Assembly (NCBI GenBank): GCA_028697015.1
Contig: JAQVFW010000014.1
Location: forward strand, 1-13,509
Source: Minisyncoccota bacterium
GTDB taxonomy: Bacteria > Patescibacteriota > Minisyncoccia > Minisyncoccales > GWA2-38-27
Direction of reading: 5' to 3'
Length of the DNA stretch: 13,509 nucleotides
The notes under the pieces are model-generated. The model saw only the letters and a list, made by a program, of their open reading frames with translations, ran no database searches and was not told the DNA's origin. This document shows positions 1,038-13,138 of the stretch, one piece after another; within the stretch, counting starts at the first letter, position 1; each line of letters starts with the position of its first letter. Both the position numbers and the translations under genes were made by a program.

Positions 1038-2576
1038 TTATTTTTGTGATTTTTTTAATATAAAATTAAAGAAACCTTTATCTATCTTTGCTTTTTTAAT
1101 ATCTTCTTCCACGTTTTGGGAATTTTCCCTAATGTACTGGTAAACAATTCTTTCTCCTGCCGACTGTTCTTTTTCTTCTTCTTTATTTGAATCTTTCTTT
1201 AATTTACTGGAAATAAAATTAAAGAAACCTTTATCTATCTTTGCTTTTTTAATATCTTCTTCCACGTTTTGGGAATTTTCTCTGATGTACTGGTAAACAA
1301 GATTTTCATCTGCAGAAATCTCATTGGAAAAATCGCTTGAAACAAAACTTTCTTCTAAGATGGAATCAATTTCGCTTATTCTTCTTTTCCCTAAATTTCT
1401 CCTTTCTTCCAGCTCTCTCTTCTTTTTATTAATGTCGGAAATTTGTTCTTCTATCGCCTTAATAGCTCTTTCAGCATCCCAAGCTTTCTTTTCAATGGTT
1501 CTTCTTTTATTTTCTATTTCCCATCTTTTCTTTTCAATATCCCTTTTCTTTTGAGGATTGCTTTCGGATTTTTCTTCTTCTTCCGTTTTTTCTTTTTCCA
1601 GATTAATGTTTTTCTCTTCTTCCGATATTTTTGAAAGAAGATTAAAAAGAACTATTTTCTTTTTTTCTAAATTATACTCTTTAACATCCAGTTCTCTTTC
1701 TTGGCTGAAAATAATATCAAGATTCTTTTGAATAATTGACCTTTCTTCTTCAATTTTCGCCTTATTTTCTATCTTCTCTATCTTTTTTATTTCTTCTTTT
1801 ATCTGCTCTTCTTTGTTATCTTTTCCTATAGATAAAGAAGATTCTTCAAGACCCTTTATCTCGTTGTTTATTTTTTGGATACCTTCCTCCTCTTTCCATC
1901 TTTTCAGCTCTATTTCTTTCCTTTTTTCCTCTGTTTCCCATCTTCTTTCTTTTATAGCTTTTAAAAGATCTTTATCTTCTTCTCTTTTTTCTTCATCTTC
2001 AATTTGTCTTGCCTGATTTTCAATTTCTTTTTCTTGTTCAAGAATAACGGAAATATTTTCTTCAATTGATTCCTTTTGTAAAATAAGCTCGTTTATTTTT
2101 GCAATAACAGGCTTTTTTAAAGCTAAAATATTCTGTATTTTTTCTTCAAGTTTAATCTTTCTCTGTTTTAAGACATCTTCTTTATTTTTTCCTTTTATCT
2201 CTGCCTCTTTTTCAATTTCTCTTTCAAGATTTCTAAGTTCATTTCTTTCTCCTTCTGTTTTTTTTAGCGCTTCTTTTCTTTTTTGAAGTTCTTCCTTCTT
2301 TTTTTCCTCCTCCTCTTCCTCTATTTTTTGCCTTTCTTCTTCTTTTCTTTTTTGAAGTTCTTCCTTCTTTTTTTCAATTTCTATTTTTACCGATTCCTCT
2401 TTTTTTTCTTCCGGGGTTTTTTCAGAAAGGACCGGTTTAATTTTTCTTTCGCCTTCTGTTTTCTTTTTTAAAAATACTCCATCATCCAAAAGACCTCCTT
2501 TAGCAAGAATATCAATGTCTTTTTTCATTGTATTAATCATTGTGCTGCTTATAGGATCGTTTTGGTCTTTTTCCAT
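1038..2576 (-). CDS. hypothetical K/E-rich long coiled-coil protein (512 aa) with internally duplicated C-terminal module
   Basis: 1.5-kb uninterrupted ORF co-oriented with its neighbours. The protein is dominated by EELQKRKE-type heptad-like K/E repeats. The C-terminal region contains the 28-aa module IVYQYIRENSQNVEEDIKKAKIDKGFFNFI twice, encoded by two 86-bp DNA direct repeats that are in frame (copies 153 bp apart). The N-terminal ~40 aa (MINTMKKDIDILAKGGLLDDGVFL) is non-repetitive. No catalytic motifs were recognised. Caveat: stop codons are rare on a purine-rich strand, so ORF length alone is weak evidence. Confidence 0.5.
   Translation of the reverse strand: MEKDQNDPISSTMINTMKKDIDILAKGGLLDDGVFLKKKTEGERKIKPVLSEKTPEEKKEESVKIEIEKKKEELQKRKEEERQKIEEEEEEKKKEELQKRKEALKKTEGERNELRNLEREIEKEAEIKGKNKEDVLKQRKIKLEEKIQNILALKKPVIAKINELILQKESIEENISVILEQEKEIENQARQIEDEEKREEDKDLLKAIKERRWETEEKRKEIELKRWKEEEGIQKINNEIKGLEESSLSIGKDNKEEQIKEEIKKIEKIENKAKIEEERSIIQKNLDIIFSQERELDVKEYNLEKKKIVLFNLLSKISEEEKNINLEKEKTEEEEKSESNPQKKRDIEKKRWEIENKRRTIEKKAWDAERAIKAIEEQISDINKKKRELEERRNLGKRRISEIDSILEESFVSSDFSNEISADENLVYQYIRENSQNVEEDIKKAKIDKGFFNFISSKLKKDSNKEEEKEQSAGERIVYQYIRENSQNVEEDIKKAKIDKGFFNFILKKSQK
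1062..1300. repeat. two 86-bp direct repeats (1062-1147 and 1215-1300, 2 mismatches) inside the 3' end of the 512-aa coiled-coil ORF
   Basis: Direct comparison of aaaattaaagaaacctttatctatctttgcttttttaatatcttcttccacgttttgggaattttcc(c/t)ct(a/g)atgtactggtaaacaa at both positions. The 153-bp offset (3 x 51) preserves the reading frame. Confidence 0.9.
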
Positions 2577-5831: not shown

Positions 5832-6209
5832 TCAACAGGATATCTGCCACCAGCTTGGACTTACTCCGATTGAAGTAAGAAAAAGATTCAGAATAATCCA
5901 CCCTCCCCATATGATTATAAGGCCAATGGCAACCGTTTTAAAAATAGATCTTGCTTTTGTAAACGCTTCTCCTCCCGAATCTGTAATATATGGCATTACC
6001 ATAAACATAGCTCCTATTATAATCATAAGGACAGCAAGAGGAGCTGCAATATAATGTTGTATAAACCCAACAATATTTGCAATCATCTGAAAAAAATCAC
6101 ACAGGGTACAATTAAAAATGGTACAAGGAACAATAGGAGTATACCCACCGGCATAGGCAAAATTAAAGGAAAAAAGAAACAGAAATATTAGTAAAATTAC
6201 TTTTTTCAT
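5832..6209 (-). CDS. small secreted/membrane protein: cleavable signal peptide, then a Cys-containing segment and two transmembrane helices (topology like T4SS VirB2/TrbC pilins)
   Basis: MKKVILLIFLFLFSFNFAYA is a typical Sec signal peptide with an AxA cleavage site. The ~105-aa mature part contains a CTIFNCTLC motif, then TM1 (IAAPLAVLMIIIGAMFMVM), a short polar loop (PYITDSGGEAFTKARSIFKT) and TM2 (VAIGLIIIWGGWIILNLFLTSIGV). No Shine-Dalgarno sequence is visible. The competing plus-strand ORF 5809-6054 has no features. Confidence 0.5.
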   Translation of the reverse strand: MKKVILLIFLFLFSFNFAYAGGYTPIVPCTIFNCTLCDFFQMIANIVGFIQHYIAAPLAVLMIIIGAMFMVMPYITDSGGEAFTKARSIFKTVAIGLIIIWGGWIILNLFLTSIGVSPSWWQISC

Positions 6210-6297: not shown

Positions 6298-7302
6298 TTA
6301 AAAGCGGTGTCCGACTCTATACTTTGCCAAAGGATTTGTTCCTCCTCTAACCTCAAAATGCAAATGGCATCCGGTTGCTCCGATAGTATAACCCGTATTT
6401 CCCATATATCCTATCAGTGCCCCTTGGGAAACTTTTTGATTTACTGAAACGGAAATCTTTGAAAGATGTCCATAATAGGTAACCATTCCGTTTGGATGAA
6501 GTATTCTTATATACCTTCCTCCAATGTTATGATATCCCGTAATCTGTATTGTCCCTGCTGCAGATGCATAAACAGGAGTGCCACAGCTATTTGCAATATC
6601 AACCGCATTGTACCAATGAAGACCCTGGGTAATATATCCTTTTACGGGAACAATAAACCCCGAAAAAGAAGGTTGAACAGGAGAAGCGGGTCGAATAACC
6701 GGCATTTCTCCGTTTGGAACAACTATTATATCCCCAATATAAATGCTTCCTTCGTCTGGCAATTCGTTAAAAGAAACAATATCTTCCGCTTTGGCTTTGT
6801 ATTTTTTAGCTATTTCGCTAACCGTGTCTCCTCTTTTCACTTCATGAACAACTCCGGAAACAGGAGGAATGGCTAATTTTTGTCCAGTTTTTAAAACTGA
6901 CTTACTATTTAAATTATTTGCCCAAAGAATTGTATTTACGGAAATATCAAACTTTTCGGCAATACTTGAAATCGTTTCTTCTTCTTTTATTTCATATTCA
7001 ATAATTTCTTTGCCTCTTTCTTCAAAACTTGCAAGCGTTCCAAAAGAAGAATTTGTTAGGTATATCAAAGGAGAAGAGGCAGCAGCAATACTGCTATCTT
7101 CAATAAAACTCATTTCCGCTTCTACTGTAATAAAATTCCTTGAACTTTCGACAAATAAGATATCTGAGGCTCTGGCAGTTTCTCCAAAATAAAAACTTCC
7201 CTTTGAAGAAGTTTTAGTTGCCATAAGTGCCAGAATGGCCAGCATGGCTATTATTGTAAAAAAAATCGCCTTTTTTCCTATACTCGGCTCCGTTTTCAAC
7301 AT
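6298..7302 (-). CDS. membrane-anchored LysM-LysM-M23 family peptidoglycan DD-metalloendopeptidase
   Basis: N-terminal transmembrane helix (AIFFTIIAMLAILALMA). Two LysM repeats: YEIKEEETISSIAEKFDISVNTILWANNL...GQKLAIP and HEVKRGDTVSEIAKKYKAKAEDIVSFNEL...GDIIVVP. C-terminal M23 (LytM-like) domain with HxxxD (HWYNAVD) and HxH (GCHLHFEV), plus GYMGNTGYTIGATG. The start was moved to the in-frame ATG at 7302, which is preceded by GGAGaaat. The ORF-track start at 7338 is a TTG codon. Confidence 0.85.
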   Translation of the reverse strand: MLKTEPSIGKKAIFFTIIAMLAILALMATKTSSKGSFYFGETARASDILFVESSRNFITVEAEMSFIEDSSIAAASSPLIYLTNSSFGTLASFEERGKEIIEYEIKEEETISSIAEKFDISVNTILWANNLNSKSVLKTGQKLAIPPVSGVVHEVKRGDTVSEIAKKYKAKAEDIVSFNELPDEGSIYIGDIIVVPNGEMPVIRPASPVQPSFSGFIVPVKGYITQGLHWYNAVDIANSCGTPVYASAAGTIQITGYHNIGGRYIRILHPNGMVTYYGHLSKISVSVNQKVSQGALIGYMGNTGYTIGATGCHLHFEVRGGTNPLAKYRVGHRF

Positions 7303-7347
7303 ATTTCTCCATGATACCCGCAAGAAAAGAAAAGTCAAGACAATTTT

Positions 7348-8235: not shown

Positions 8236-10671
8236 ATGTCTTTGTTTAAAAACAACCTAAAAAGGAGAAAACTTTTAACATTTGTTTCTTTTTTTATTTT
8301 TTCTTTTATATTTTTTACTCCCCTTATTGCAAAAGGATTTGATCTTGGAATAGGAGAGGCCTTTGATACTTTTACAAGATATCTTTTAAGCTTGGTGCTA
8401 ACTATACCTCTTTTTTTTATTGGAATTATTCTAATGATACTCGTTTTGTTAGCCCAGCTTCTTGCTCTTTTAACAAGATCCATATTGATACTTGTGATGA
8501 GTCCCTACTTTATATCATGGAGTTATACTCAGCCTGCAACAAATCCGATAATAAGCCAAGGACTGCTGGTTACTCAAAGCTTAATGAATATGATTCTTGT
8601 TTTAGCCCTTCTTTATATAGGAATTGTGACAATACTTGGACTTGAAAGCTATAACACAAAGAAACTACTTATAACTTTTATAGTTATAGCTCTTCTTGTA
8701 AATTTTGCTCCCGTAATTACCGGACTTATTGTTGACCCTTCTAATATATTGATAAGATACTTTGTTACTCAAATTCCAGGAGGAGACGGAGGATTTATAA
8801 GCCGTACAGTTACCGCTCATAATTCTATTTTAGGAGGATTTTCACATATGGAAAATATTTGGGATGCTCTCAAAGGAGGCCTTCTTTTGACAACTGCCGG
8901 AATGGTGTTTAGAGCATCCGGACTTTTGATAGTTTATCTTCTTATTTCCCTAGCTTATCTTGGATTTATCGTCATTTTCACGGCAAGATATTTTGCAATT
9001 TGGCTACTTGTAATTTTGTCTCCTATTGCTTTTGTCTGCTATATCCTCCCTGAAACCCAAGGGATAGCAAGAAAATGGTGGAATGCTTTTATACAATGGA
9101 CCTTTATCGGAGTAACTGGGGCTTTTTTTCTTTATCTTGCCGAAGGATTTGCCATGATGAACCCCGCTTTAATTTATAGCTCCCTTACAATCCCTCAAGG
9201 AGGCGGATTTCTTTTATTAAGAGATCTTGTTGCACTCTTGGCTCCTGCTTTATTTGGAGTAATGCTCGCAATAATAGGACTAATGGTATCAGTATCAACA
9301 AGTGCTATAGGAGCTCAAATGGTACTTGGCGTTTCAAAAAAATATGGGAAAGCAGGAGCAATAAAAGGAGGAAAGTTTTTGACAAGGAGCATTCCTTCTG
9401 GATTGAAAGAACAAATGGCAAAGCAAACAAAAACCACCCTGCCTGGATTTGAAGGAAAAAGCGGAGGAGGTAAATTTGCTACAGGACTAGGATATGCAAC
9501 AGGTGTTATTCCTGCATATTGGGCAACGCGTAAAGCGGTAGGAGCAGCAGGAGTAGTATTAAAAGAAACAGAAAAAAAAGACAGAGCTCAAGCAAAAGAA
9601 AAATATAAAGGATCAACAATTGAAAAGAAAATGCAAGGAGTAAATTCTCCTTTTGAAAAAGAAAGAACAGCAGCACTTGTTATGGCAAATGAAGAGGGAA
9701 ATATAGGAGAAATGAAGAAAAAATACGGTCTTACAGATGATACGATAAAAGAGATTATAAAAGAAACAAGAGAACATTCCCCTGACGAATTTAAGAAGCT
9801 TAGAAAAACGATGCCTCAATATGCCAAAGAGCTGGTTTCCGACGATGAGCTTGCTCAAAAAGTTACAGATAAAGAAATTAAAGAACGTCTTGACAGTTCT
9901 TATGGAATAACAGACAAAGATGAGGTAGATAAAATACTTAAAGATGAAGAAGAAAGAAACAGAATTGCCAGAGAAGTTATTGATGATAAATTTCCGGATG
10001 AAAAAGACAAAGACAGAGCTAAACTTGATATAATTATAAGTCAGGTAAAAAAGAGCGATGTTGAATCTTGGTCTTCTGATGTTTTTGATGATGAAGAAGT
10101 AGTAAAAAGCATTTTAGTAAATGCAAAAGTTCAAATTATACCTGAAATAGCTGAAAATTTTGGAGAAAAAGCTCGCGAAAAGATACAAGAACAAGTAGAT
10201 TCTGGAGCAGAAATAAGCGCAAGTATGCATAGTTATCTTACGTCAAATGCAGGAAGAGCAATTTTCCCTATTGAAAATATACCACCTAGAACAACTTCAA
10301 CATCCAGTACACCCTCTACGCCATCTGGCTCAACTCCTTCAACACCTAGCACACCCTCTACGCCATCTGGTCCAACTCCTTCAACACCTAGTACACCCTC
10401 TACGCCATCTGGTCCAACTCCTTCAACACCTAGTACACCCTCTACGCCATCTGGCTCAACTCCTTCAACACCTAGCACACCCTCTACGCCATCTGGTCCA
10501 ACTCCTTCAACACCTAGTACACCCTCTACGCCATCTGGTCCAACTCCCCGAACAAGAGGAGGATATACACCCTCTACGCCATCTGGTCCAACTCCTTCAA
10601 CACCTAGTACACCCTCTACGCCATCTGGTCCAACTCCCCGAACAAGAGGAGGATATGGAAAAAATCCATAA
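8236..10671 (+). CDS. large polytopic membrane protein (~9-11 TM helices in the first ~365 aa) with a charged cytoplasmic-like central domain and a C-terminal Pro/Thr/Ser tandem-repeat tail; TrbL/VirB6-like topology (hypothesis)
   Basis: 2.4-kb ORF. N-terminal signal-anchor (LLTFVSFFIFSFIFFTPLIAKG), then many hydrophobic helices up to ~aa 365. Residues ~370-690 are K/E/D-rich and hydrophilic. Residues ~690-811 are TPSTPS(G/S)PTPSTPS repeats with two PRTRGGY insertions, ending GGYGKNP. TAA stop, followed by a strong terminator. No LPXTG or other sortase signal. Confidence 0.75.
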   Translation: MSLFKNNLKRRKLLTFVSFFIFSFIFFTPLIAKGFDLGIGEAFDTFTRYLLSLVLTIPLFFIGIILMILVLLAQLLALLTRSILILVMSPYFISWSYTQPATNPIISQGLLVTQSLMNMILVLALLYIGIVTILGLESYNTKKLLITFIVIALLVNFAPVITGLIVDPSNILIRYFVTQIPGGDGGFISRTVTAHNSILGGFSHMENIWDALKGGLLLTTAGMVFRASGLLIVYLLISLAYLGFIVIFTARYFAIWLLVILSPIAFVCYILPETQGIARKWWNAFIQWTFIGVTGAFFLYLAEGFAMMNPALIYSSLTIPQGGGFLLLRDLVALLAPALFGVMLAIIGLMVSVSTSAIGAQMVLGVSKKYGKAGAIKGGKFLTRSIPSGLKEQMAKQTKTTLPGFEGKSGGGKFATGLGYATGVIPAYWATRKAVGAAGVVLKETEKKDRAQAKEKYKGSTIEKKMQGVNSPFEKERTAALVMANEEGNIGEMKKKYGLTDDTIKEIIKETREHSPDEFKKLRKTMPQYAKELVSDDELAQKVTDKEIKERLDSSYGITDKDEVDKILKDEEERNRIAREVIDDKFPDEKDKDRAKLDIIISQVKKSDVESWSSDVFDDEEVVKSILVNAKVQIIPEIAENFGEKAREKIQEQVDSGAEISASMHSYLTSNAGRAIFPIENIPPRTTSTSSTPSTPSGSTPSTPSTPSTPSGPTPSTPSTPSTPSGPTPSTPSTPSTPSGSTPSTPSTPSTPSGPTPSTPSTPSTPSGPTPRTRGGYTPSTPSGPTPSTPSTPSTPSGPTPRTRGGYGKNP
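10309..10656 (+). repeat. near-perfect tandem array of 42-bp units (acaccctctacgccatctgg[c/t][t/c]caactccttcaacacctag[c/t]) with higher-order periodicity, inside the 3' end of the 811-aa CDS
   Basis: Full units at 10309, 10351, 10393, 10435, 10477 and 10567. Truncated 29-bp units followed by the 19-bp insert ccgaacaagaggaggatat lie at 10519 and 10609. Units 1 and 4 carry ggctca (Gly-Ser); the others carry ggtcca (Gly-Pro). This gives a 126-bp super-repeat (10309-10434 = 10435-10560 except for the end of unit 6) and an exact 90-bp duplication (10477-10566 = 10567-10656). Confidence 0.95.
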
Positions 10672-10688
10672 CATTTTTTAAAAAACAA

Positions 10689-10717
10689 AAAAGGAGTCAA
10701 AGACTCCTTTTATTTTT
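10689..10717. terminator. bidirectional intrinsic terminator between convergent genes (811-aa membrane protein gene and SPFH gene 1)
   Basis: aaaaaaggagtc-aaa-gactcctttt: an 8-bp stem (aaggagtc/gactcctt, 10691-10698 and 10702-10709) with a 3-nt loop. T-runs follow on both strands (plus: ttatttttag; minus: ttttttgtttttt). Confidence 0.75.
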
Positions 10718-10724
10718 AGAAAAA

Positions 10725-11774
10725 TCATTCTTCCGAAACTGAACGAAGTCCTTTTCTAAGAGCTTCCTGTAAACCAGGAATAGCCTGGACAACCATGCTA
10801 GCAGGAAGTGGGCTTTTTTCCATCGCCTCTAATATTCTAACAAGACTTCCTGTGTCTTCAAAATCTCTTATTGTAGCAAAAACCCTTTTAATTCTTTCAA
10901 CTTCAGCATCAGCATCAATAACTGTCGCTCTTTTTCGCATTTCTGCAAGATAAGGAGCTAATGTATTTTCTCTATACTCAGGAGGAGGATCTAATTCTTT
11001 AATTTGAATTTTTCGGACTTTAATTCCATATTCCTTTTCAAACTCGTCAAGAATCCCGGCACATAAAGTGAAAATATCATCACCCATATTACTTATTTCC
11101 GTTATCCATTCTCCATACTCTTTTTGGGTAATAAAATTTCTCACTTCCGGCTTAAGACGATTAATTAATGTTTCGAGCCAATTTTGGACTCTAAAAAGAG
11201 CACGATAAGGATTAATTATTTTAACTGTTAATTTAAGCTCTACTTTAAGAGGAAGAAGATTTTTATCTTCTGCTCTGTCTAAACCCGCCCAGTAAACATC
11301 TTCCTTAAGAAGAACGTAATCTAGTGTTCTTTTTGGATGATAAACTACTTTTTCTTGTTGGTTTATCCCTGACCACTCAAAACCATAGCCATAAATATCC
11401 CATAGTGGCCAAAATCCATAAAATCGCAATCCACCAAAGAGATGACTTTCTGATCCTTCTTTAACATTCCATTTATCATCTCCTGAATCAAAATAGGAAA
11501 AAGTTCTACCTTCCCATTGAATAAGAGCTTTTTCAAATTTGTCCGCTTTGACAATAACTTTTGCCGTTCCTTCATTAACAAAAGTAAAAAAAAGATTATT
11601 TGGTGCTAAAAAGAAAAAAATAACAAGAAAGATATAGGTAGGGCAACTTAAGAAAATACTTAAGATTATAGCCCAACCTAAAAAATTTCCAACCATAATT
11701 CCTAAAAAAATAGAAGAAAAAATAATTGCAATCAACCCAAAAAGGGAAAGAAAAATTTTCAAAAGAATCATCAT
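10725..11774 (-). CDS. SPFH/band-7 (stomatin/prohibitin/HflKC-like) domain membrane protein, paralog 1
   Basis: N-terminal TM helices (MMILLKIFLSLFGLIAIIFSSIFLGIMVGNFLGWAIILSIFL...). The SPFH-like core begins VNEGTAKVIVK. The C-terminal part (IKVRKIQIKELDPPPEY...LAEMRKRATVIDADAEVERIKRVF) resembles the conserved SPFH segment (V.I.DI.PP..V..AM...AER.RRA.I..AEGE). The start was reassigned to ATGATG at 11774 or 11771, which is preceded by a GGAGG Shine-Dalgarno sequence at 11784-11780. The ORF-track start at 11852 would overlap the promoter -35. Confidence 0.65.
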   Translation of the reverse strand: MMILLKIFLSLFGLIAIIFSSIFLGIMVGNFLGWAIILSIFLSCPTYIFLVIFFFLAPNNLFFTFVNEGTAKVIVKADKFEKALIQWEGRTFSYFDSGDDKWNVKEGSESHLFGGLRFYGFWPLWDIYGYGFEWSGINQQEKVVYHPKRTLDYVLLKEDVYWAGLDRAEDKNLLPLKVELKLTVKIINPYRALFRVQNWLETLINRLKPEVRNFITQKEYGEWITEISNMGDDIFTLCAGILDEFEKEYGIKVRKIQIKELDPPPEYRENTLAPYLAEMRKRATVIDADAEVERIKRVFATIRDFEDTGSLVRILEAMEKSPLPASMVVQAIPGLQEALRKGLRSVSEE

Positions 11775-11785
11775 TCCAACCTCCT

Positions 11786-11856
11786 TAATTTTCAAGGTTC
11801 CAACTAAAAAAGTTCTAATTAAAAATATAGCACTTCTTTTTGTTTTTGTCAAATTT
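11786..11856 (-). repeat. copy 1 of a ~70-bp direct repeat (second copy 13069-13138, ~97% identical) immediately upstream of SPFH gene 1
   Basis: Plus-strand aattttcaaggttccaactaaaaaagttctaattaaaaatatagcacttcttttt(g/a)tttttgtcaaatt occurs at both loci. Confidence 0.9.
11824..11852 (-). promoter_or_regulatory. sigma70-type promoter within repeat copy 1: -35 TTGACA (11852..11847), 17-bp spacer, -10 TATATT (11829..11824), driving SPFH gene 1
   Basis: The minus-strand reading is aaatTTGACAaaaacaaaaagaagtgcTATATTtttaattagaac. It has a consensus -35 and exact 17-bp spacing. A leader of ~40 nt reaches the GGAGG Shine-Dalgarno sequence and the ATG at 11774. Confidence 0.5.
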
Positions 11857-11909
11857 TTATTGTAATTATTATATTAAATAAAAAATATAGCTTTATATAT
11901 ATTTTAAAA

Positions 11910-11932
11910 GCCCTTCTCTAAAAGAGGAGGGC
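11910..11932 (-). terminator. intrinsic terminator downstream of SPFH gene 2 (separates the two SPFH genes)
   Basis: Minus-strand gccctcctc-tttta-gagaagggc: a 9-bp stem including one G-U pair, followed by ttttaaaatatat. It lies 16 nt after the TAA stop of the 11948-12862 CDS. Confidence 0.5.
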
Positions 11933-11947
11933 ATAATTTTTTCTTTT

Positions 11948-12862
11948 TTATTTGCCTAAAATTTTATTAATAGCATCAACTATTTTAGGATCTGCAAGAA
12001 CTTCTATAATTTTAGGAGAAATACTTACCTCTTTTATTTTTTTAGAAACAGTTCCTTTTTCTGTTTGAATAAGCTCAATAGCTTCAGAAGTAGATAAATT
12101 TCCTTCTTCCTTATATTTTTTAATAAAGTCAGCAATCTGTTTTAATTCTTTTTTTTCAATATCTATTTTAATCCCTTTGACTACTGATAATTCCGCCACT
12201 TTTGCAAATTCTCCAACAAAGCGCAATCCCGTGATATTTATCTGATTAATTTTAACTCCAAGTCCTTCATGAATAATACATCCCTTCCCTTGAATTACAT
12301 TTCTAACCTCTTTATCTCCAACTTCATTGCCACAGATAATCTTTAGTATAGAACTAATAGCACTATTTCCAGCATCCCCTAATTTTTTATAATTAAATGA
12401 CCTTGACCAGGATGTTATATTTCCATGAATAATGCTCTCAATTTCTTTTTTAACTCCTTTTTCTCCTCCACTGTTTAAAAAATTAATCAACAAAGGAGGA
12501 TCATAACAAGGAGTCCAAGTAATTGATATTTCAATAATATGTTTTACATTATCAGAAGAATAAATTTGAATAGAAATAGTTTGTCTAGTAGCTAATATTT
12601 TTACTAAAAAAACATTGAAAATAACAGGGTTAAGTGGAACAAATCTCCATCCCTCATTAAGAATTTCTTCTTGTCTTTGTCCAAGAAAAACAAGAACTCC
12701 TTTATGAGGAGGATCTACCTGTATCATTACTATACTATTGTAAAAAAACAACAGTAAAAGAATTAAAAAGCTCAAAGCCCACCATCCAATAAAAAAAGAG
12801 GATATTATAGTTATCGCGACTATAAAAGCCGGAACTAAAAAAAGAAAAATGGTTCTACTCAT
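11948..12862 (-). CDS. SPFH/band-7-like domain membrane protein, paralog 2
   Basis: Two N-terminal TM helices (IFLFLVPAFIVAITIISSFFIGWWALSFLILLLLFF). The SPFH-like segment begins VDPPHKGVLVFLGQRQEEILNEGWRFVPLNPV (cf. the SPFH N-terminal strand V.EGE.GVV.RFGK....PG..F..P). Its architecture is like that of the upstream paralog. The start is set at ATG 12862 (MSRTIFL), which is preceded by an AAGGAG Shine-Dalgarno sequence with a 6-nt spacer. Confidence 0.55.
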   Translation of the reverse strand: MSRTIFLFLVPAFIVAITIISSFFIGWWALSFLILLLLFFYNSIVMIQVDPPHKGVLVFLGQRQEEILNEGWRFVPLNPVIFNVFLVKILATRQTISIQIYSSDNVKHIIEISITWTPCYDPPLLINFLNSGGEKGVKKEIESIIHGNITSWSRSFNYKKLGDAGNSAISSILKIICGNEVGDKEVRNVIQGKGCIIHEGLGVKINQINITGLRFVGEFAKVAELSVVKGIKIDIEKKELKQIADFIKKYKEEGNLSTSEAIELIQTEKGTVSKKIKEVSISPKIIEVLADPKIVDAINKILGK

Positions 12863-13068
12863 TTCTATCTCCTTTTCTTTCGACTTTGTTGTGTTCACTA
12901 AATTTTAAATTGGTAATAACAGAGAAATAAAATAATAAGAATAACAGCAATAAAAGGGAAATTTTAATAAAATCAACACTTTCTTTTAAATGCTGTTTTT
13001 TTTCTTTTATTAAGAAGATACCCTAAAAGGCGAATCTTATTATAATTTTCCATTCCTTTTCTCCATTG

Positions 13069-13138
13069 AATTTTCAAGGTTCCAACTAAAAAAGTTCTAA
13101 TTAAAAATATAGCACTTCTTTTTATTTTTGTCAAATTC
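13069..13138 (-). repeat. copy 2 of the ~70-bp direct repeat, carrying the same promoter (-35 TTGACA 13134..13129, -10 TATATT 13111..13106), ~240 nt upstream of SPFH gene 2
   Basis: See copy 1. The 17-bp spacer differs by one base. Downstream of it is a ~200-nt A/T-rich leader before the SPFH gene 2 Shine-Dalgarno sequence. Confidence 0.85.

What the first reader, a model, noticed from the sequence alone, without database searches (positions are those of the whole stretch)
10725..13138. Tandem SPFH/band-7 paralogs, each behind a copy of the same 70-bp promoter element; the second has a ~200-nt leader
Two co-oriented membrane proteins, each with N-terminal TM helices followed by an SPFH-like domain, are separated by an intrinsic terminator. 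Each is preceded by a ~97%-identical 70-bp element containing a consensus TTGACA-17 bp-TATATT promoter. For paralog 1 the element abuts the GGAGG Shine-Dalgarno sequence and the ATG. For paralog 2 it lies ~240 nt upstream, leaving a long A/T-rich leader. That leader contains a possible 26-codon uORF (13053..12973, MENYNKIRLLGYLLNKRKKTAFKRKC, with its own GGAG) and a long-range AACAGCA/TGCTGTT pairing. The duplicated promoter implies co-regulation of an HflK/HflC-like or flotillin-like pair, possibly with differential post-transcriptional control. The arrangement also shows that the ORF-track start of paralog 1 (11852) is wrong because it would overlap its own -35 box.
Basis: seen in the sequence. 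Interest (0 to 1): 0.55.

Follow-up and report, generated by a model that had tools for sequence, protein, structure and literature searches.

The report
Duplicated promoter before two SPFH genes
Two membrane-scaffold (SPFH) genes of an uncultured Patescibacteria bacterium each sit behind a nearly identical 69-base promoter-and-leader cassette that was copied recently within the locus. The 'long leader' of the first gene is probably the wreck of a small gene; this is ordinary genome evolution, of added interest only because such SPFH genes are constant neighbours of this phylum's type IV secretion genes.

Summary
A 69-nt direct repeat (68/69 identical) lies at 11787-11855 and 13069-13137 on the minus strand. 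It carries the two best sigma-70-type sites in the window (TTGACA, 17 nt, TGcTATATT) and precedes two SPFH/Band-7 genes.

Both proteins are SPFH by Pfam, family membership and predicted fold. They belong to very different subfamilies and show no pairwise similarity, so they are not recent paralogs.

The element is not a dispersed repeat. Public scans found it only at this locus.

The ~240-nt 'leader' is not a structured regulatory RNA. It aligns to an intact 90-codon small membrane-protein ORF in a close relative (L019). The window version has two deletions (32 + 82 nt) and in-frame stops, and the 'uORF' is its N-terminal stump.

The upstream copy is orthologous to the relative's element (~88% identical). 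The 99% identity between the two copies therefore reflects recent intralocus duplication or gene conversion.

The HflK/HflC-pair idea fails: 45 of 45 related genomes have SPFH1 without SPFH2.

SPFH1 homologs sit between a VirB4/TraC/PrgI cluster (or dnaN) and a convergent TrbL/VirB6-like gene. SPFH2 homologs sit beside VirB2-like pilin clusters. The element also carries a leader motif (CCTTGAAAA) conserved upstream of SPFH1 homologs.

The parts
13069..13137 (-). Copy 2 of the 69-nt promoter+leader cassette, just after dnaN. -35 TTGACA at 13134-13129; TG at 13114-13113; -10 TATATT at 13111-13106; conserved leader motif GAACCTTGAAAA at about 13082-13071.
   Evidence: Orthologous element, about 88% identical with homologous flanks, in L019.
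12863..13068 (-). 'Leader' of the SPFH2 unit, read as a decayed small membrane-protein gene. The N-terminal remnant is the 26-codon ORF 13053..12973. The C-terminal remnant FPFIAVILIILFLCYYQFKI* lies at 12960..12898 in the same frame. The middle segment is out of frame with TGA and TAA stops.
   Evidence: Aligns to the intact 90-codon ORF L019:723-995 with 32-nt and 82-nt deletions. No excess RNA structure. No Rfam hit.
11948..12862 (-). SPFH2: 304-aa divergent SPFH/Band-7 protein with an N-terminal TM hairpin. True start is the ATG at 12862, after AAGGAG.
   Evidence: Band_7 22.9 bits against GA 23.6. 274 family representatives. 41/41 aligned members hit Band_7. AF2 pLDDT 91.7. Foldseek top hits are prohibitin, HflK/C, erlin and stomatin. 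The L019 ortholog starts at the same ATG.
11910..11932 (.). GC-rich hairpin between the two SPFH genes; a probable, possibly leaky, terminator of the SPFH2 transcript.
   Evidence: 10-bp stem, -12.8 kcal/mol, with only UUUU on the coding strand.
11787..11855 (-). Copy 1 of the cassette, abutting the SD and ATG of SPFH1. -35 at 11852-11847; -10 at 11829-11824; motif GAACCTTGAAAA at about 11800-11789; SD GGAGG at 11784-11780 lies just outside the repeat.
10725..11774 (-). SPFH1: 349-aa SPFH/Band-7 protein with two N-terminal TM helices, an SPFH domain and a long coiled-coil helix. It belongs to a conserved Patescibacteria family.
   Evidence: Band_7 40.7 bits against GA 23.6. 153 homologs. Alignment. 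AF2 pLDDT 87. Foldseek top hits are stomatin, QmcA and HflK/C.
10689..10711 (.). Bidirectional terminator shared by SPFH1 and the convergent membrane-protein gene.
   Evidence: z = -3.4.
8236..10671 (+). Convergent 811-aa polytopic membrane protein, tentatively TrbL/VirB6-like, with a Pro/Ser/Thr-rich tandem-repeat tail. It is the conserved downstream neighbour of SPFH1 homologs.
   Evidence: tblastn-detected homologs lie downstream of SPFH1 in 30/45 GTDB loci. Relatives carry weak TrbL, TrbL_3 or TrbL_4 Pfam hits. The window protein itself has no Pfam hit.

Best explanation
The 69-nt element is a promoter-plus-5'-leader cassette. It has a near-consensus sigma-70-type promoter with an extended -10, followed by about 30 transcribed bases that carry a leader motif (GAACCTTGAAAA) typical of SPFH1-family genes in Patescibacteria.

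Two copies drive two separate transcription units.
- Copy 2, after dnaN, transcribes the remains of a small membrane-protein gene and then SPFH2. That transcript ends, perhaps leakily, at the 11910-11932 hairpin.
- Copy 1 transcribes SPFH1 alone, up to the bidirectional terminator at 10689-10711.

The near-identity of the copies is a young intralocus event, either duplication or gene conversion. The most likely direction is from the dnaN-proximal copy to the SPFH1 copy. It does not reflect 69 bases of conserved regulatory information. The practical result is that both SPFH genes get the same strong promoter, the same leader motif, and hence similar expression.

The long 'leader' is a by-product of gene decay, not a regulatory device.

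Both proteins are predicted cage-forming SPFH membrane scaffolds. Conserved gene neighbourhood points to a role alongside the Patescibacteria type IV secretion-like apparatus: SPFH1 with the VirB6-like protein, and the SPFH2 family with VirB2-like pilins.

Shown: the repeat, the promoter consensus, SPFH membership, gene decay relative to L019, the synteny and the motif enrichment. Inferred: promoter activity and start sites, direction and timing of the copying, and any functional link to the T4SS.
For: Repeat and promoter.

Only at this locus: 0 hits in 185,579 species genomes and 1 metagenome contig, which is the same locus with 2 copies. No further copy in about 18 kb of flanking contig.

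SPFH membership.

Gene decay: L019 has DnaN C-terminus 96% identical. It carries the orthologous element followed by an intact 90-codon ORF and then the SPFH2 ortholog. The window aligns to it with 32-nt and 82-nt deletions. N- and C-terminal remnants share one frame and the middle lies in another, with stops. The chance of a 90-codon open frame at this base composition is about 3e-4.

Recent copying: the two copies differ at 1/69 positions. Copy 2 differs from L019 by about 12%, and its flanks by about 15-26%. Copy 2 therefore looks vertically inherited and the identity is younger than the split from L019.

Shared leader motif: in L067 both SPFH genes carry the same about 25-nt motif. C[CT]TT[TG]A[AC]AA occurs in 9/34 SPFH1 leaders against 3/192 other genes, and 2 of those 3 are SPFH1 homologs. 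In a held-out PWM test the leader hit ranked in the top 10 of about 25,000 positions in 15/33 loci.

Synteny.

Published context: T4SS genes of Patescibacteria cluster near dnaA, dnaN, rnpA and ksgA (PMC12102498).
Against: - No transcript data. Promoter activity, start sites and termination at the weak U-tract hairpin are predictions.
- The 90-codon ORF of L019 has no other homolog in 5.8 billion proteins. 'Decayed gene' therefore rests on one relative; the alternative is a fast-drifting spacer that happens to be open in L019.
- The SPFH1 upstream region of the L019 lineage is unknown. Direction of copying, and concerted evolution versus one recent event, are not settled.
- The complete genome of this organism was not searchable. 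Diverged or unassembled extra copies cannot be excluded.
- The VirB6 assignment of the neighbour is sub-threshold.
Confidence: 0.7

Rival explanations
1. One reading: the duplicated promoter co-regulates an HflK/HflC-like or flotillin-like heteromeric pair. The ~240-nt leader, with its uORF and long-range pairing, adds differential post-transcriptional control to paralog 2.
For: Same promoter on both genes. A 26-codon ORF with GGAG exists. The AACAGCA/TGCTGTT stem is in the MFE fold. L067 also has an SPFH2-like and an SPFH1-like gene in tandem with a shared leader motif.
Against: The leader folds no better than shuffles (z = +0.46). The pairing arms and the uORF stop are not conserved in L019, where the same sequence is part of a 90-codon ORF. 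No Rfam match. The hflK equivalog score is 20 against 159. SPFH1 occurs alone in 45/45 GTDB loci. The two proteins show no pairwise similarity.
Confidence: 0.1
2. The two repeats are the scars of a cassette insertion. The ancestral state was dnaN-P-SPFH1, as in several relatives. A segment (small ORF + SPFH2 + terminator) entered by recombination at P (Campbell-type or duplicative), leaving P on both sides. The 1.28-kb unit could be lost again by recombination between the repeats.
For: dnaN lies directly upstream of SPFH1 in L026, L028, L034, L035 and L037. SPFH2 is absent next to SPFH1 in 45/45 GTDB loci. The repeats exactly flank the small-ORF/SPFH2/terminator segment.
Against: L019 already has the small ORF and SPFH2 after dnaN, with an element only about 88% identical. 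The insertion is therefore older than the 99% identity of the repeats, and a later conversion is still needed. No deletion variant was seen among 7 contigs carrying these genes.
Confidence: 0.2
3. The identity is maintained by selection. The whole 69 nt would be a composite binding platform (promoter plus operator or leader motif) for a dedicated regulator, defining a small regulon of T4SS-associated SPFH genes.
For: The leader motif is conserved and gene-specific across distant Patescibacteria. It is shared by both SPFH genes in L067. Many relatives also have a conserved hairpin right after the -10 box.
Against: Only about 12 nt of the element is conserved across genomes; the spacer and the start-site-proximal part differ freely. 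The window element lacks the hairpin. One strain (L004) carries TTGATA in copy 2. RNAalifold finds no shared structure around the motif. No regulator was identified.
Confidence: 0.25
4. The element is a mobile or dispersed repeat (a MITE-like element or a promoter-bearing repeat scattered through the genome).
For: Sharp repeat boundaries and very high identity.
Against: A 26-nt core gave 0 matches in 596 Gb of species-representative genomes. It matched only one JGI metagenome contig, which is this locus. No other copy lies in the window or in 18-kb contigs. No terminal inverted repeats were listed. The ortholog in L019 sits at the same position.
Confidence: 0.03

Closest known systems
Stomatin / QmcA-type bacterial SPFH (Band 7) membrane scaffolds
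   Same: N-terminal membrane anchor, SPFH alpha/beta domain and a long coiled-coil helix. Foldseek top hits for SPFH1 are human stomatin and E. coli QmcA. Such proteins form homo-oligomeric cages, which fits SPFH1 usually occurring alone.
   Different: No NfeD/YbbJ partner gene nearby. Only 12-18% identity. SPFH1 has an extra beta-rich insertion between the TM region and the Pfam-matched part (Band_7 match covers only residues 167-291). The genomic partner is a T4SS-like cluster rather than NfeD.
HflK/HflC (FtsH modulator pair) and other SPFH hetero-pairs (prohibitin 1/2, flotillin 1/2, erlin 1/2)
   Same: Two SPFH genes in tandem. Both models align to HflK/C and prohibitin chains.
   Different: Equivalog thresholds are far from met (TIGR01933 20 against 159). 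The pair is rare (45/45 relatives have SPFH1 only). No ftsH in the neighbourhood. The two proteins are not detectably similar to each other.
Sigma-70-type promoters with extended -10 (TGnTATAAT), as in Gram-positive and many other bacteria (textbook knowledge)
   Same: TTGACA, 17 nt, TGcTATATT, 11/12 plus TG. Equivalent consensus promoters precede SPFH1 homologs in most relatives.
   Different: Activity is untested. Patescibacteria promoters have not, to my knowledge, been mapped experimentally for this lineage.
Patescibacteria type IV secretion-like system located near the replication origin (Quinonero-Coronel et al. 2025, PMC12102498)
   Same: Same chromosomal setting (rpmH-rnpA-yidC, dnaA-dnaN, ksgA/rsmA). 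Same components: VirB4, TrsD/TraC-like, PrgI/VirB3, VirB6-like, VirB2-like pilins and a LysM-M23 peptidase.
   Different: That study does not mention SPFH/Band 7 proteins in its text or in the two supplementary files held. The constant position of SPFH1 between the VirB4 cluster and the VirB6-like gene is an addition, not yet a demonstrated component.
Concerted evolution or gene conversion between short homologous tracts of neighbouring genes (for example tufA/tufB in enterobacteria; general knowledge)
   Same: Two tracts about 1.3 kb apart are kept or made nearly identical while their surroundings are unrelated.
   Different: Here the tract is non-coding (promoter plus leader) and only 69 nt long, near the lower size limit for homologous recombination. 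A single recent duplication is equally possible.

Membership tests
SPFH / Band 7 (PF01145) | Profile match at or above Pfam's gathering score | tested here: met
   SPFH1: 40.7 bits against 23.6. SPFH2 alone scores 22.9, just under the cutoff. But all 41 aligned family members match Band_7 (best E 1.7e-16), and a family profile hits stomatin in the PDB.
SPFH / Band 7 (PF01145) | SPFH alpha/beta fold followed by a long coiled-coil helix, with an N-terminal membrane anchor | tested here: met
   AF2 models have pLDDT 87 and 92. Each shows two N-terminal helices, a beta-sheet domain and a 37-40-residue helix. Foldseek E-values of 1e-10 to 1e-12 to stomatin, prohibitin, HflK/C and QmcA.
HflK/HflC | Match to the hflK or hflC equivalog models | tested here: not met
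   TIGR01933 scored 20.1 bits against a cutoff of 159.4 for SPFH1; nothing for SPFH2.
HflK/HflC | Obligate co-occurring K/C pair | tested here: not met
   The SPFH1 family has no SPFH2-family gene within +/-6 kb in 45/45 GTDB loci. The tandem occurs only in the window species, L067 and probably L019.
HflK/HflC | Functional and physical association with FtsH | not testable with these tools
   No ftsH lies in any fetched neighbourhood. Genome-wide presence and interaction cannot be tested here.
Stomatin-NfeD operon (QmcA-YbbJ type) | Adjacent NfeD-family gene | tested here: not met
   No NfeD Pfam family among the called neighbours in any locus.
Sigma-70-type extended -10 promoter | -35 and -10 hexamers, 17 +/- 1 spacing, TG at -15/-14 | tested here: met
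   TTGACA, 17 nt, TG-c-TATATT in both copies; these are the top two sites in the window.
Sigma-70-type extended -10 promoter | Transcription start about 7 nt downstream of the -10 | not testable with these tools
   No transcriptome data available.
MITE / dispersed repeat | Many copies at unrelated sites; terminal inverted repeats | tested here: not met
   Only the two copies at this locus were found in the window, in 18-kb contigs, in GTDB genomes and in JGI metagenomes. No TIRs were reported. Caveat: the scans needed an exact 26-mer, and the full source genome was not available.
Regulatory leader (uORF / attenuator / riboswitch) | Conserved uORF or conserved, more-stable-than-chance structure; match to a known RNA family | tested here: not met
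   z = +0.46 for the 250-nt leader. No Rfam hit at E <= 1. In L019 the uORF is part of a 90-codon ORF and the stem arms differ.
Patescibacteria T4SS gene neighbourhood | Conserved adjacency to VirB4 / TraC-like / PrgI and VirB6-like genes | tested here: met
   A TrbL/VirB6-like gene lies convergent downstream in 30/45 GTDB loci. Among the 21 loci with >= 39% identity it is present in 19, and the other 2 run off the contig. A VirB4-TraC-PrgI cluster lies divergent upstream in 17/45, and dnaN in 5. SPFH2-family genes lie next to 3-4 VirB2-like pilin genes in 3 independent loci. Adjacency only; being a component of the machine is not tested.

The most novel reading that the evidence does not exclude
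SPFH scaffolds are dedicated, previously unremarked accessory parts of the Patescibacteria type IV secretion-like machine. The SPFH1 family would work with the VirB6-like channel protein and the SPFH2 family with the VirB2-like pilins. Their expression would be set by a lineage-wide leader signal: a hairpin near the 5' end and/or the CCTT(T/G)AAAA motif. The window's 69-nt cassette would be a recently duplicated instance of that signal.
Probability: 0.3. Interest if true: 0.55.

Novelty: new member of a known kind. Interest (0 to 1): 0.35.

Why it matters
As first described, this is an ordinary case: a strong promoter copied in front of a neighbouring gene, and a long leader that is a dead gene.

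Its practical value is twofold.
- It corrects two start codons in the deposited annotation: 375 aa should be 349 aa, and 316 aa should be 304 aa.
- It warns against reading regulatory meaning into long AT-rich leaders in fast-decaying reduced genomes.

The wider pattern is more useful. The T4SS-like system is reported to be essential for epibiotic growth in Saccharimonadia (as summarised in PMC12102498). SPFH cages are known organisers or gatekeepers of membrane complexes such as FtsH with HflK/C. A constant SPFH neighbour of the VirB6-like gene, with its own conserved leader motif, gives a concrete and testable candidate for an extra component or regulator of that machine.

Tried and rejected
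- oriC or a DNA-unwinding element in the AT-rich dnaN-SPFH2 spacer. DnaA-box-like sites occur only in the rpmH-dnaA and dnaA-dnaN spacers of L007, at chance frequency overall. Rejected.
- A known RNA family in the element or leader. Rfam at E <= 1 returned only a tRNA.
- An SD-sequestering helix between CCUU(U) of the motif and AAAGG of the SD. Single-sequence folds suggest it in several leaders, but RNAalifold on 15 leaders gives no consensus pair. Not supported.
- Searching for dispersed copies through the element's spurious translation, and for homologs of the L019 90-aa ORF, with one chimeric protein query. Only the L019 ORF itself returned. Uninformative; it did not even recover the 375-aa NCBI form.
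- Anti-phage defence role. No PADLOC match for SPFH1, SPFH2 or the VirB6-like protein.
- Confirming VirB6 identity by a profile search against PDB sequences. No relevant hit. The Pfam TrbL, TrbL_3 and TrbL_4 hits in relatives are sub-threshold, so the label stays tentative.
- Covariance model of the hairpin that follows the -10 box in relatives (R1). It recovers 7 non-seed SPFH leaders but also scattered hits at similar E-values, and finds nothing in the window's element. The hairpin is real in relatives but is not part of this element.
- MAFFT-based alignments of the hairpin were out of register, so no formal covariation count was made.


Full report
SOURCE AND LAYOUT

The window is nearly identical to NCBI MAG contig JAQURO010000016.1 (GCA_028715565.1). 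The source labels name it Candidatus Pacebacteria/Paceibacterota. It is 99% identical to contigs from several ENA and JGI metagenomes.

All genes of the finding lie on the minus strand. With flanking contigs the order is: rpmH-rnpA-yidD-yidC, then divergently dnaA-dnaN, then SPFH2 and SPFH1. A convergent 811-aa membrane protein follows, then rsmA(ksgA), a LysM-M23 peptidase, a VirB2-like pilin, a tRNA, rpsO, a NYN-domain gene and pnp.

THE OBSERVATION

The repeat finder reports one 69-nt direct repeat, at 11787-11855 and 13069-13137. It is 68/69 identical and the copies are 1282 nt apart. Identity stops abruptly 3 nt upstream of the -35 box and just upstream of the SD. A 36-nt part never recurs in 200 shuffles.

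Each copy has TTGACA, a 17-nt spacer, and TATATT preceded by TG. These are the two best promoter-like sites in the whole window. The arrangement recurs in at least six independent assemblies, so it is not an assembly artefact. Short Logan contigs break exactly at the repeats, as expected for a repeat longer than the assembler's k-mer (my inference about the assembler).

THE PROTEINS

SPFH1 (10725-11774, 349 aa) scores 40.7 bits on Band_7, against a cutoff of 23.6. SPFH2 (11948-12862, 304 aa) scores 22.9, just under the cutoff.

An exhaustive HMMER search found 274 representatives of the SPFH2 family. All 41 aligned members hit Band_7.

The AlphaFold models have pLDDT 87 and 92. Both show an N-terminal helical hairpin, an SPFH domain and a long helix. 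Foldseek matches stomatin, QmcA, HflK/C, prohibitin and erlin at E-values of 1e-10 to 1e-12. Both proteins are therefore SPFH scaffolds.

They are not close paralogs. BLASTP finds nothing between them, and profile-profile probability is 23%. The hflK equivalog scores 20 against 159.

START CODONS

The TTG at 11852 (NCBI's 375-aa form) is the start of the -35 hexamer. None of 33 homologs has the extension, and ENA and JGI gene calls use the ATG at 11774.

For SPFH2, the GTG at 12898 (NCBI, 316 aa) is also unlikely. The L019 ortholog starts at the ATG equivalent to 12862, and an in-frame stop lies just upstream of it there.

IS THE ELEMENT DISPERSED?

A 26-nt core gave no match in the species-representative genome collection. 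It gave one match in JGI metagenome contigs, which is this locus with both copies. Nothing else turned up in the window or in 18-kb contigs.

The MITE or regulon-wide-repeat reading is therefore not supported. One caveat applies: the complete source genome could not be scanned.

THE LONG LEADER

The closest relative with sequence here is L019, whose DnaN C-terminus is 96% identical. After dnaN it has the same element at about 88% identity. Next comes an intact 90-codon ORF encoding a small TM protein, and then the SPFH2 ortholog.

The window's spacer aligns to that ORF with two deletions of 32 and 82 nt. The C-terminal remnant (...ILFLCYYQFKI*) is in the same frame as the ATG. The middle segment (KESVDFIKIS against EESIGFIKIS) is in another frame, so TGA and TAA interrupt frame 0. 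All strains share this state.

The 250-nt leader is no more structured than shuffles (z = +0.46) and has no Rfam match. I therefore read the leader as a decayed small gene.

The weak point is that the 90-aa ORF has no other homolog. However, an open frame of that length has a chance probability of about 3e-4 at this composition.

AGE AND DIRECTION OF THE COPY

The two copies differ at 1 of 69 positions. Copy 2 differs from L019's element by about 12%. Its flanks differ by about 15% upstream and about 26% downstream.

Copy 2 thus looks like the vertically inherited resident. The near-identity of copy 1 is younger than the split from L019. It arose either by a recent duplication placing this promoter in front of SPFH1, or by gene conversion between already related promoters.

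One strain (L004) has TTGATA in copy 2, so the copies are not being homogenised continuously.

A related scenario starts from dnaN lying directly upstream of SPFH1 in five relatives. The small-ORF/SPFH2/terminator segment may have been inserted between an ancestral promoter and SPFH1, and promoter duplication may then have restored SPFH1 expression. This is plausible but untested.

WHAT THE RELATIVES ADD

First, synteny. In 45 GTDB Patescibacteria genomes with an SPFH1 homolog:
- 30 have a homolog of the window's 811-aa protein convergent downstream. Among the 21 loci with at least 39% identity, 19 have it and the other 2 run off the contig.
- 17 have a divergent VirB4/TraC-like/PrgI-like cluster upstream.
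- 5 have dnaN upstream.
- rsmA and LysM-M23 usually follow (Pfam labels).

The 811-aa family has only weak TrbL, TrbL_3 or TrbL_4 hits, so 'VirB6-like' is tentative.

None of the 45 genomes has an SPFH2-family gene nearby. The tandem recurs only in L067, which reads VirB4-TraC-PrgI, then SPFH2-like, an IS, SPFH1-like, and onward to RsmA. In three other independent loci, SPFH2-family genes face clusters of 3-4 VirB2-like pilin genes.

A 2025 survey of the Patescibacteria T4SS describes the same origin-proximal neighbourhood. It does not mention SPFH proteins in its text or in the supplementary files held. A literature search for Patescibacteria plus SPFH found nothing relevant.

Second, leaders. 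Most SPFH1 homologs have a consensus TTGACA-17-TATAAT promoter. Often a hairpin follows right after the -10 box (CAAGGAAA-loop-TTTCCTTG, with both-sided changes such as GGAAA/TTTCC to GAAAA/TTTTC). Then comes the motif (A/C)CCTT(T/G)A(A/C)AA at about 25-55 nt before the ATG.

The motif is gene-specific in these loci. It occurs in 9/34 SPFH1 leaders against 3/192 other genes, and two of those three are SPFH1 homologs. In a held-out PWM test the leader hit ranked in the top 10 of about 25,000 positions in 15 of 33 loci, although a few of those hits are the -35 box itself.

The window's element carries the motif (GAACCTTGAAAA) but not the hairpin. In L067 both SPFH genes carry the same about 25-nt version. 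No consensus RNA structure was found around the motif, and no Rfam family matches. Its function is unknown; it resembles an extended -35 box.

VERDICT

The 'paralog pair' and 'regulatory leader' readings do not. The best explanation is a young promoter-leader duplication or conversion that gives two unrelated SPFH scaffold genes the same expression signals, with a dead small gene forming the long leader.

This is a new member of known kinds and of modest interest. The constant association of SPFH genes with the Patescibacteria T4SS neighbourhood, and their conserved leader motif, are the parts worth following up.

Noticed in passing
window 11789-11800 and 13071-13082; leaders of SPFH1 homologs in L012, L019, L021, L026, L029, L030, L035, L040, L043, L045, L047, L050, L056, L060, L061, L063, L066, L067 and others: A conserved sequence motif, (A/C)CCTT(T/G)A(A/C)AA, lies about 25-55 nt upstream of the ATG of SPFH1-family genes across distant Patescibacteria. 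It is enriched against other genes in the same loci (9/34 against 3/192) and is shared by both SPFH genes in L067. No consensus structure and no Rfam match. It resembles an extended -35 box. Function unknown.
   Followed up: partly
L021:2336-2366, L029:708-732, L035:5857-5881, L034:5786-5810, L040:5934-5961, L037:5629-5653, L043:4351-4379, L036:5797-5829, L026:5931-5953, L067:2349-2373: A hairpin lies immediately after the -10 box of SPFH-gene promoters (CAAGGAAA-loop-TTTCCTTG). Loops range from 3 to 11 nt and several pair positions change on both sides. The window's element lacks it. It may be a 5'-terminal mRNA stabiliser or an operator.
   Followed up: partly
L022-L066, L011, L012, L014, L021, L067 (SPFH1 family); L017/L018, L068/L069, L070 (SPFH2 family): SPFH1 homologs are almost always sandwiched between a VirB4/TraC-like/PrgI-like cluster (or dnaN) and a convergent TrbL/VirB6-like gene. 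SPFH2-family genes, each with a small overlapping downstream gene, face clusters of 3-4 VirB2-like pilin genes. This is not mentioned in the 2025 survey of the Patescibacteria T4SS.
   Followed up: partly
window 10248-10673 (C-terminus of the 811-aa protein 8236-10671): A 42-nt tandem array encodes (PSTPSTPSTPSGPT)n. Its copy number differs between near-identical strains, giving products of 811, 753 and 689 aa. It looks like a variable, probably surface-exposed tail on the VirB6-like protein.
   Followed up: partly
window 11852 and 12898: The deposited NCBI annotations start both SPFH genes too far upstream: TTG at 11852 gives 375 aa and GTG at 12898 gives 316 aa. The likely starts are the ATGs at 11774 and 12862.
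   Followed up: yes
L004:5587-5663 (strain variant of copy 2): One strain carries TTGATA instead of TTGACA in the -35 box of the dnaN-proximal copy, plus two changes just upstream. Copy 1 is unchanged in all strains.
   Followed up: no
window 5832-6209 (-) and 6298-7338 (-): A 125-aa protein with a weak T4SS_pilin (VirB2-like) match and a LysM-LysM-Peptidase_M23 protein lie a few kb from the SPFH genes. L007 also has two large proteins with weak T4SS_pilin matches upstream of yidC. No VirB4 gene lies on any contig of this species.
   Followed up: no
L007:4359-4378 and 5927-5935: DnaA-box-like 9-mers (TAATCCACA, TTATACACA, TTTTCCACA) occur only in the rpmH-dnaA and dnaA-dnaN spacers, suggesting oriC lies there. 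The count is not above chance for the whole locus.
   Followed up: no
window 1041-1316 (inside ORF 1038-2576, 512 aa): A 123-nt direct repeat (87% identical, 153 nt apart) duplicates the C-terminal segment ERIVYQYIRENSQNVEEDIKKAKIDKGFFNFI of a very Glu/Lys-rich protein of unknown function.
   Followed up: no
L017:3982-5497: A CBASS-like pair (CD-NTase C-terminal domain plus Cap15) lies directly upstream of an SPFH2-family gene in a Paceibacterota MAG. No PADLOC match was found for the window's SPFH proteins.
   Followed up: no
L019:1478-1885: The SPFH2 ortholog of the closest relative is split by a frameshift into 185-aa and 119-aa pieces. This is either a sequencing error in a single-run assembly or decay of SPFH2 in that lineage.
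   Followed up: no
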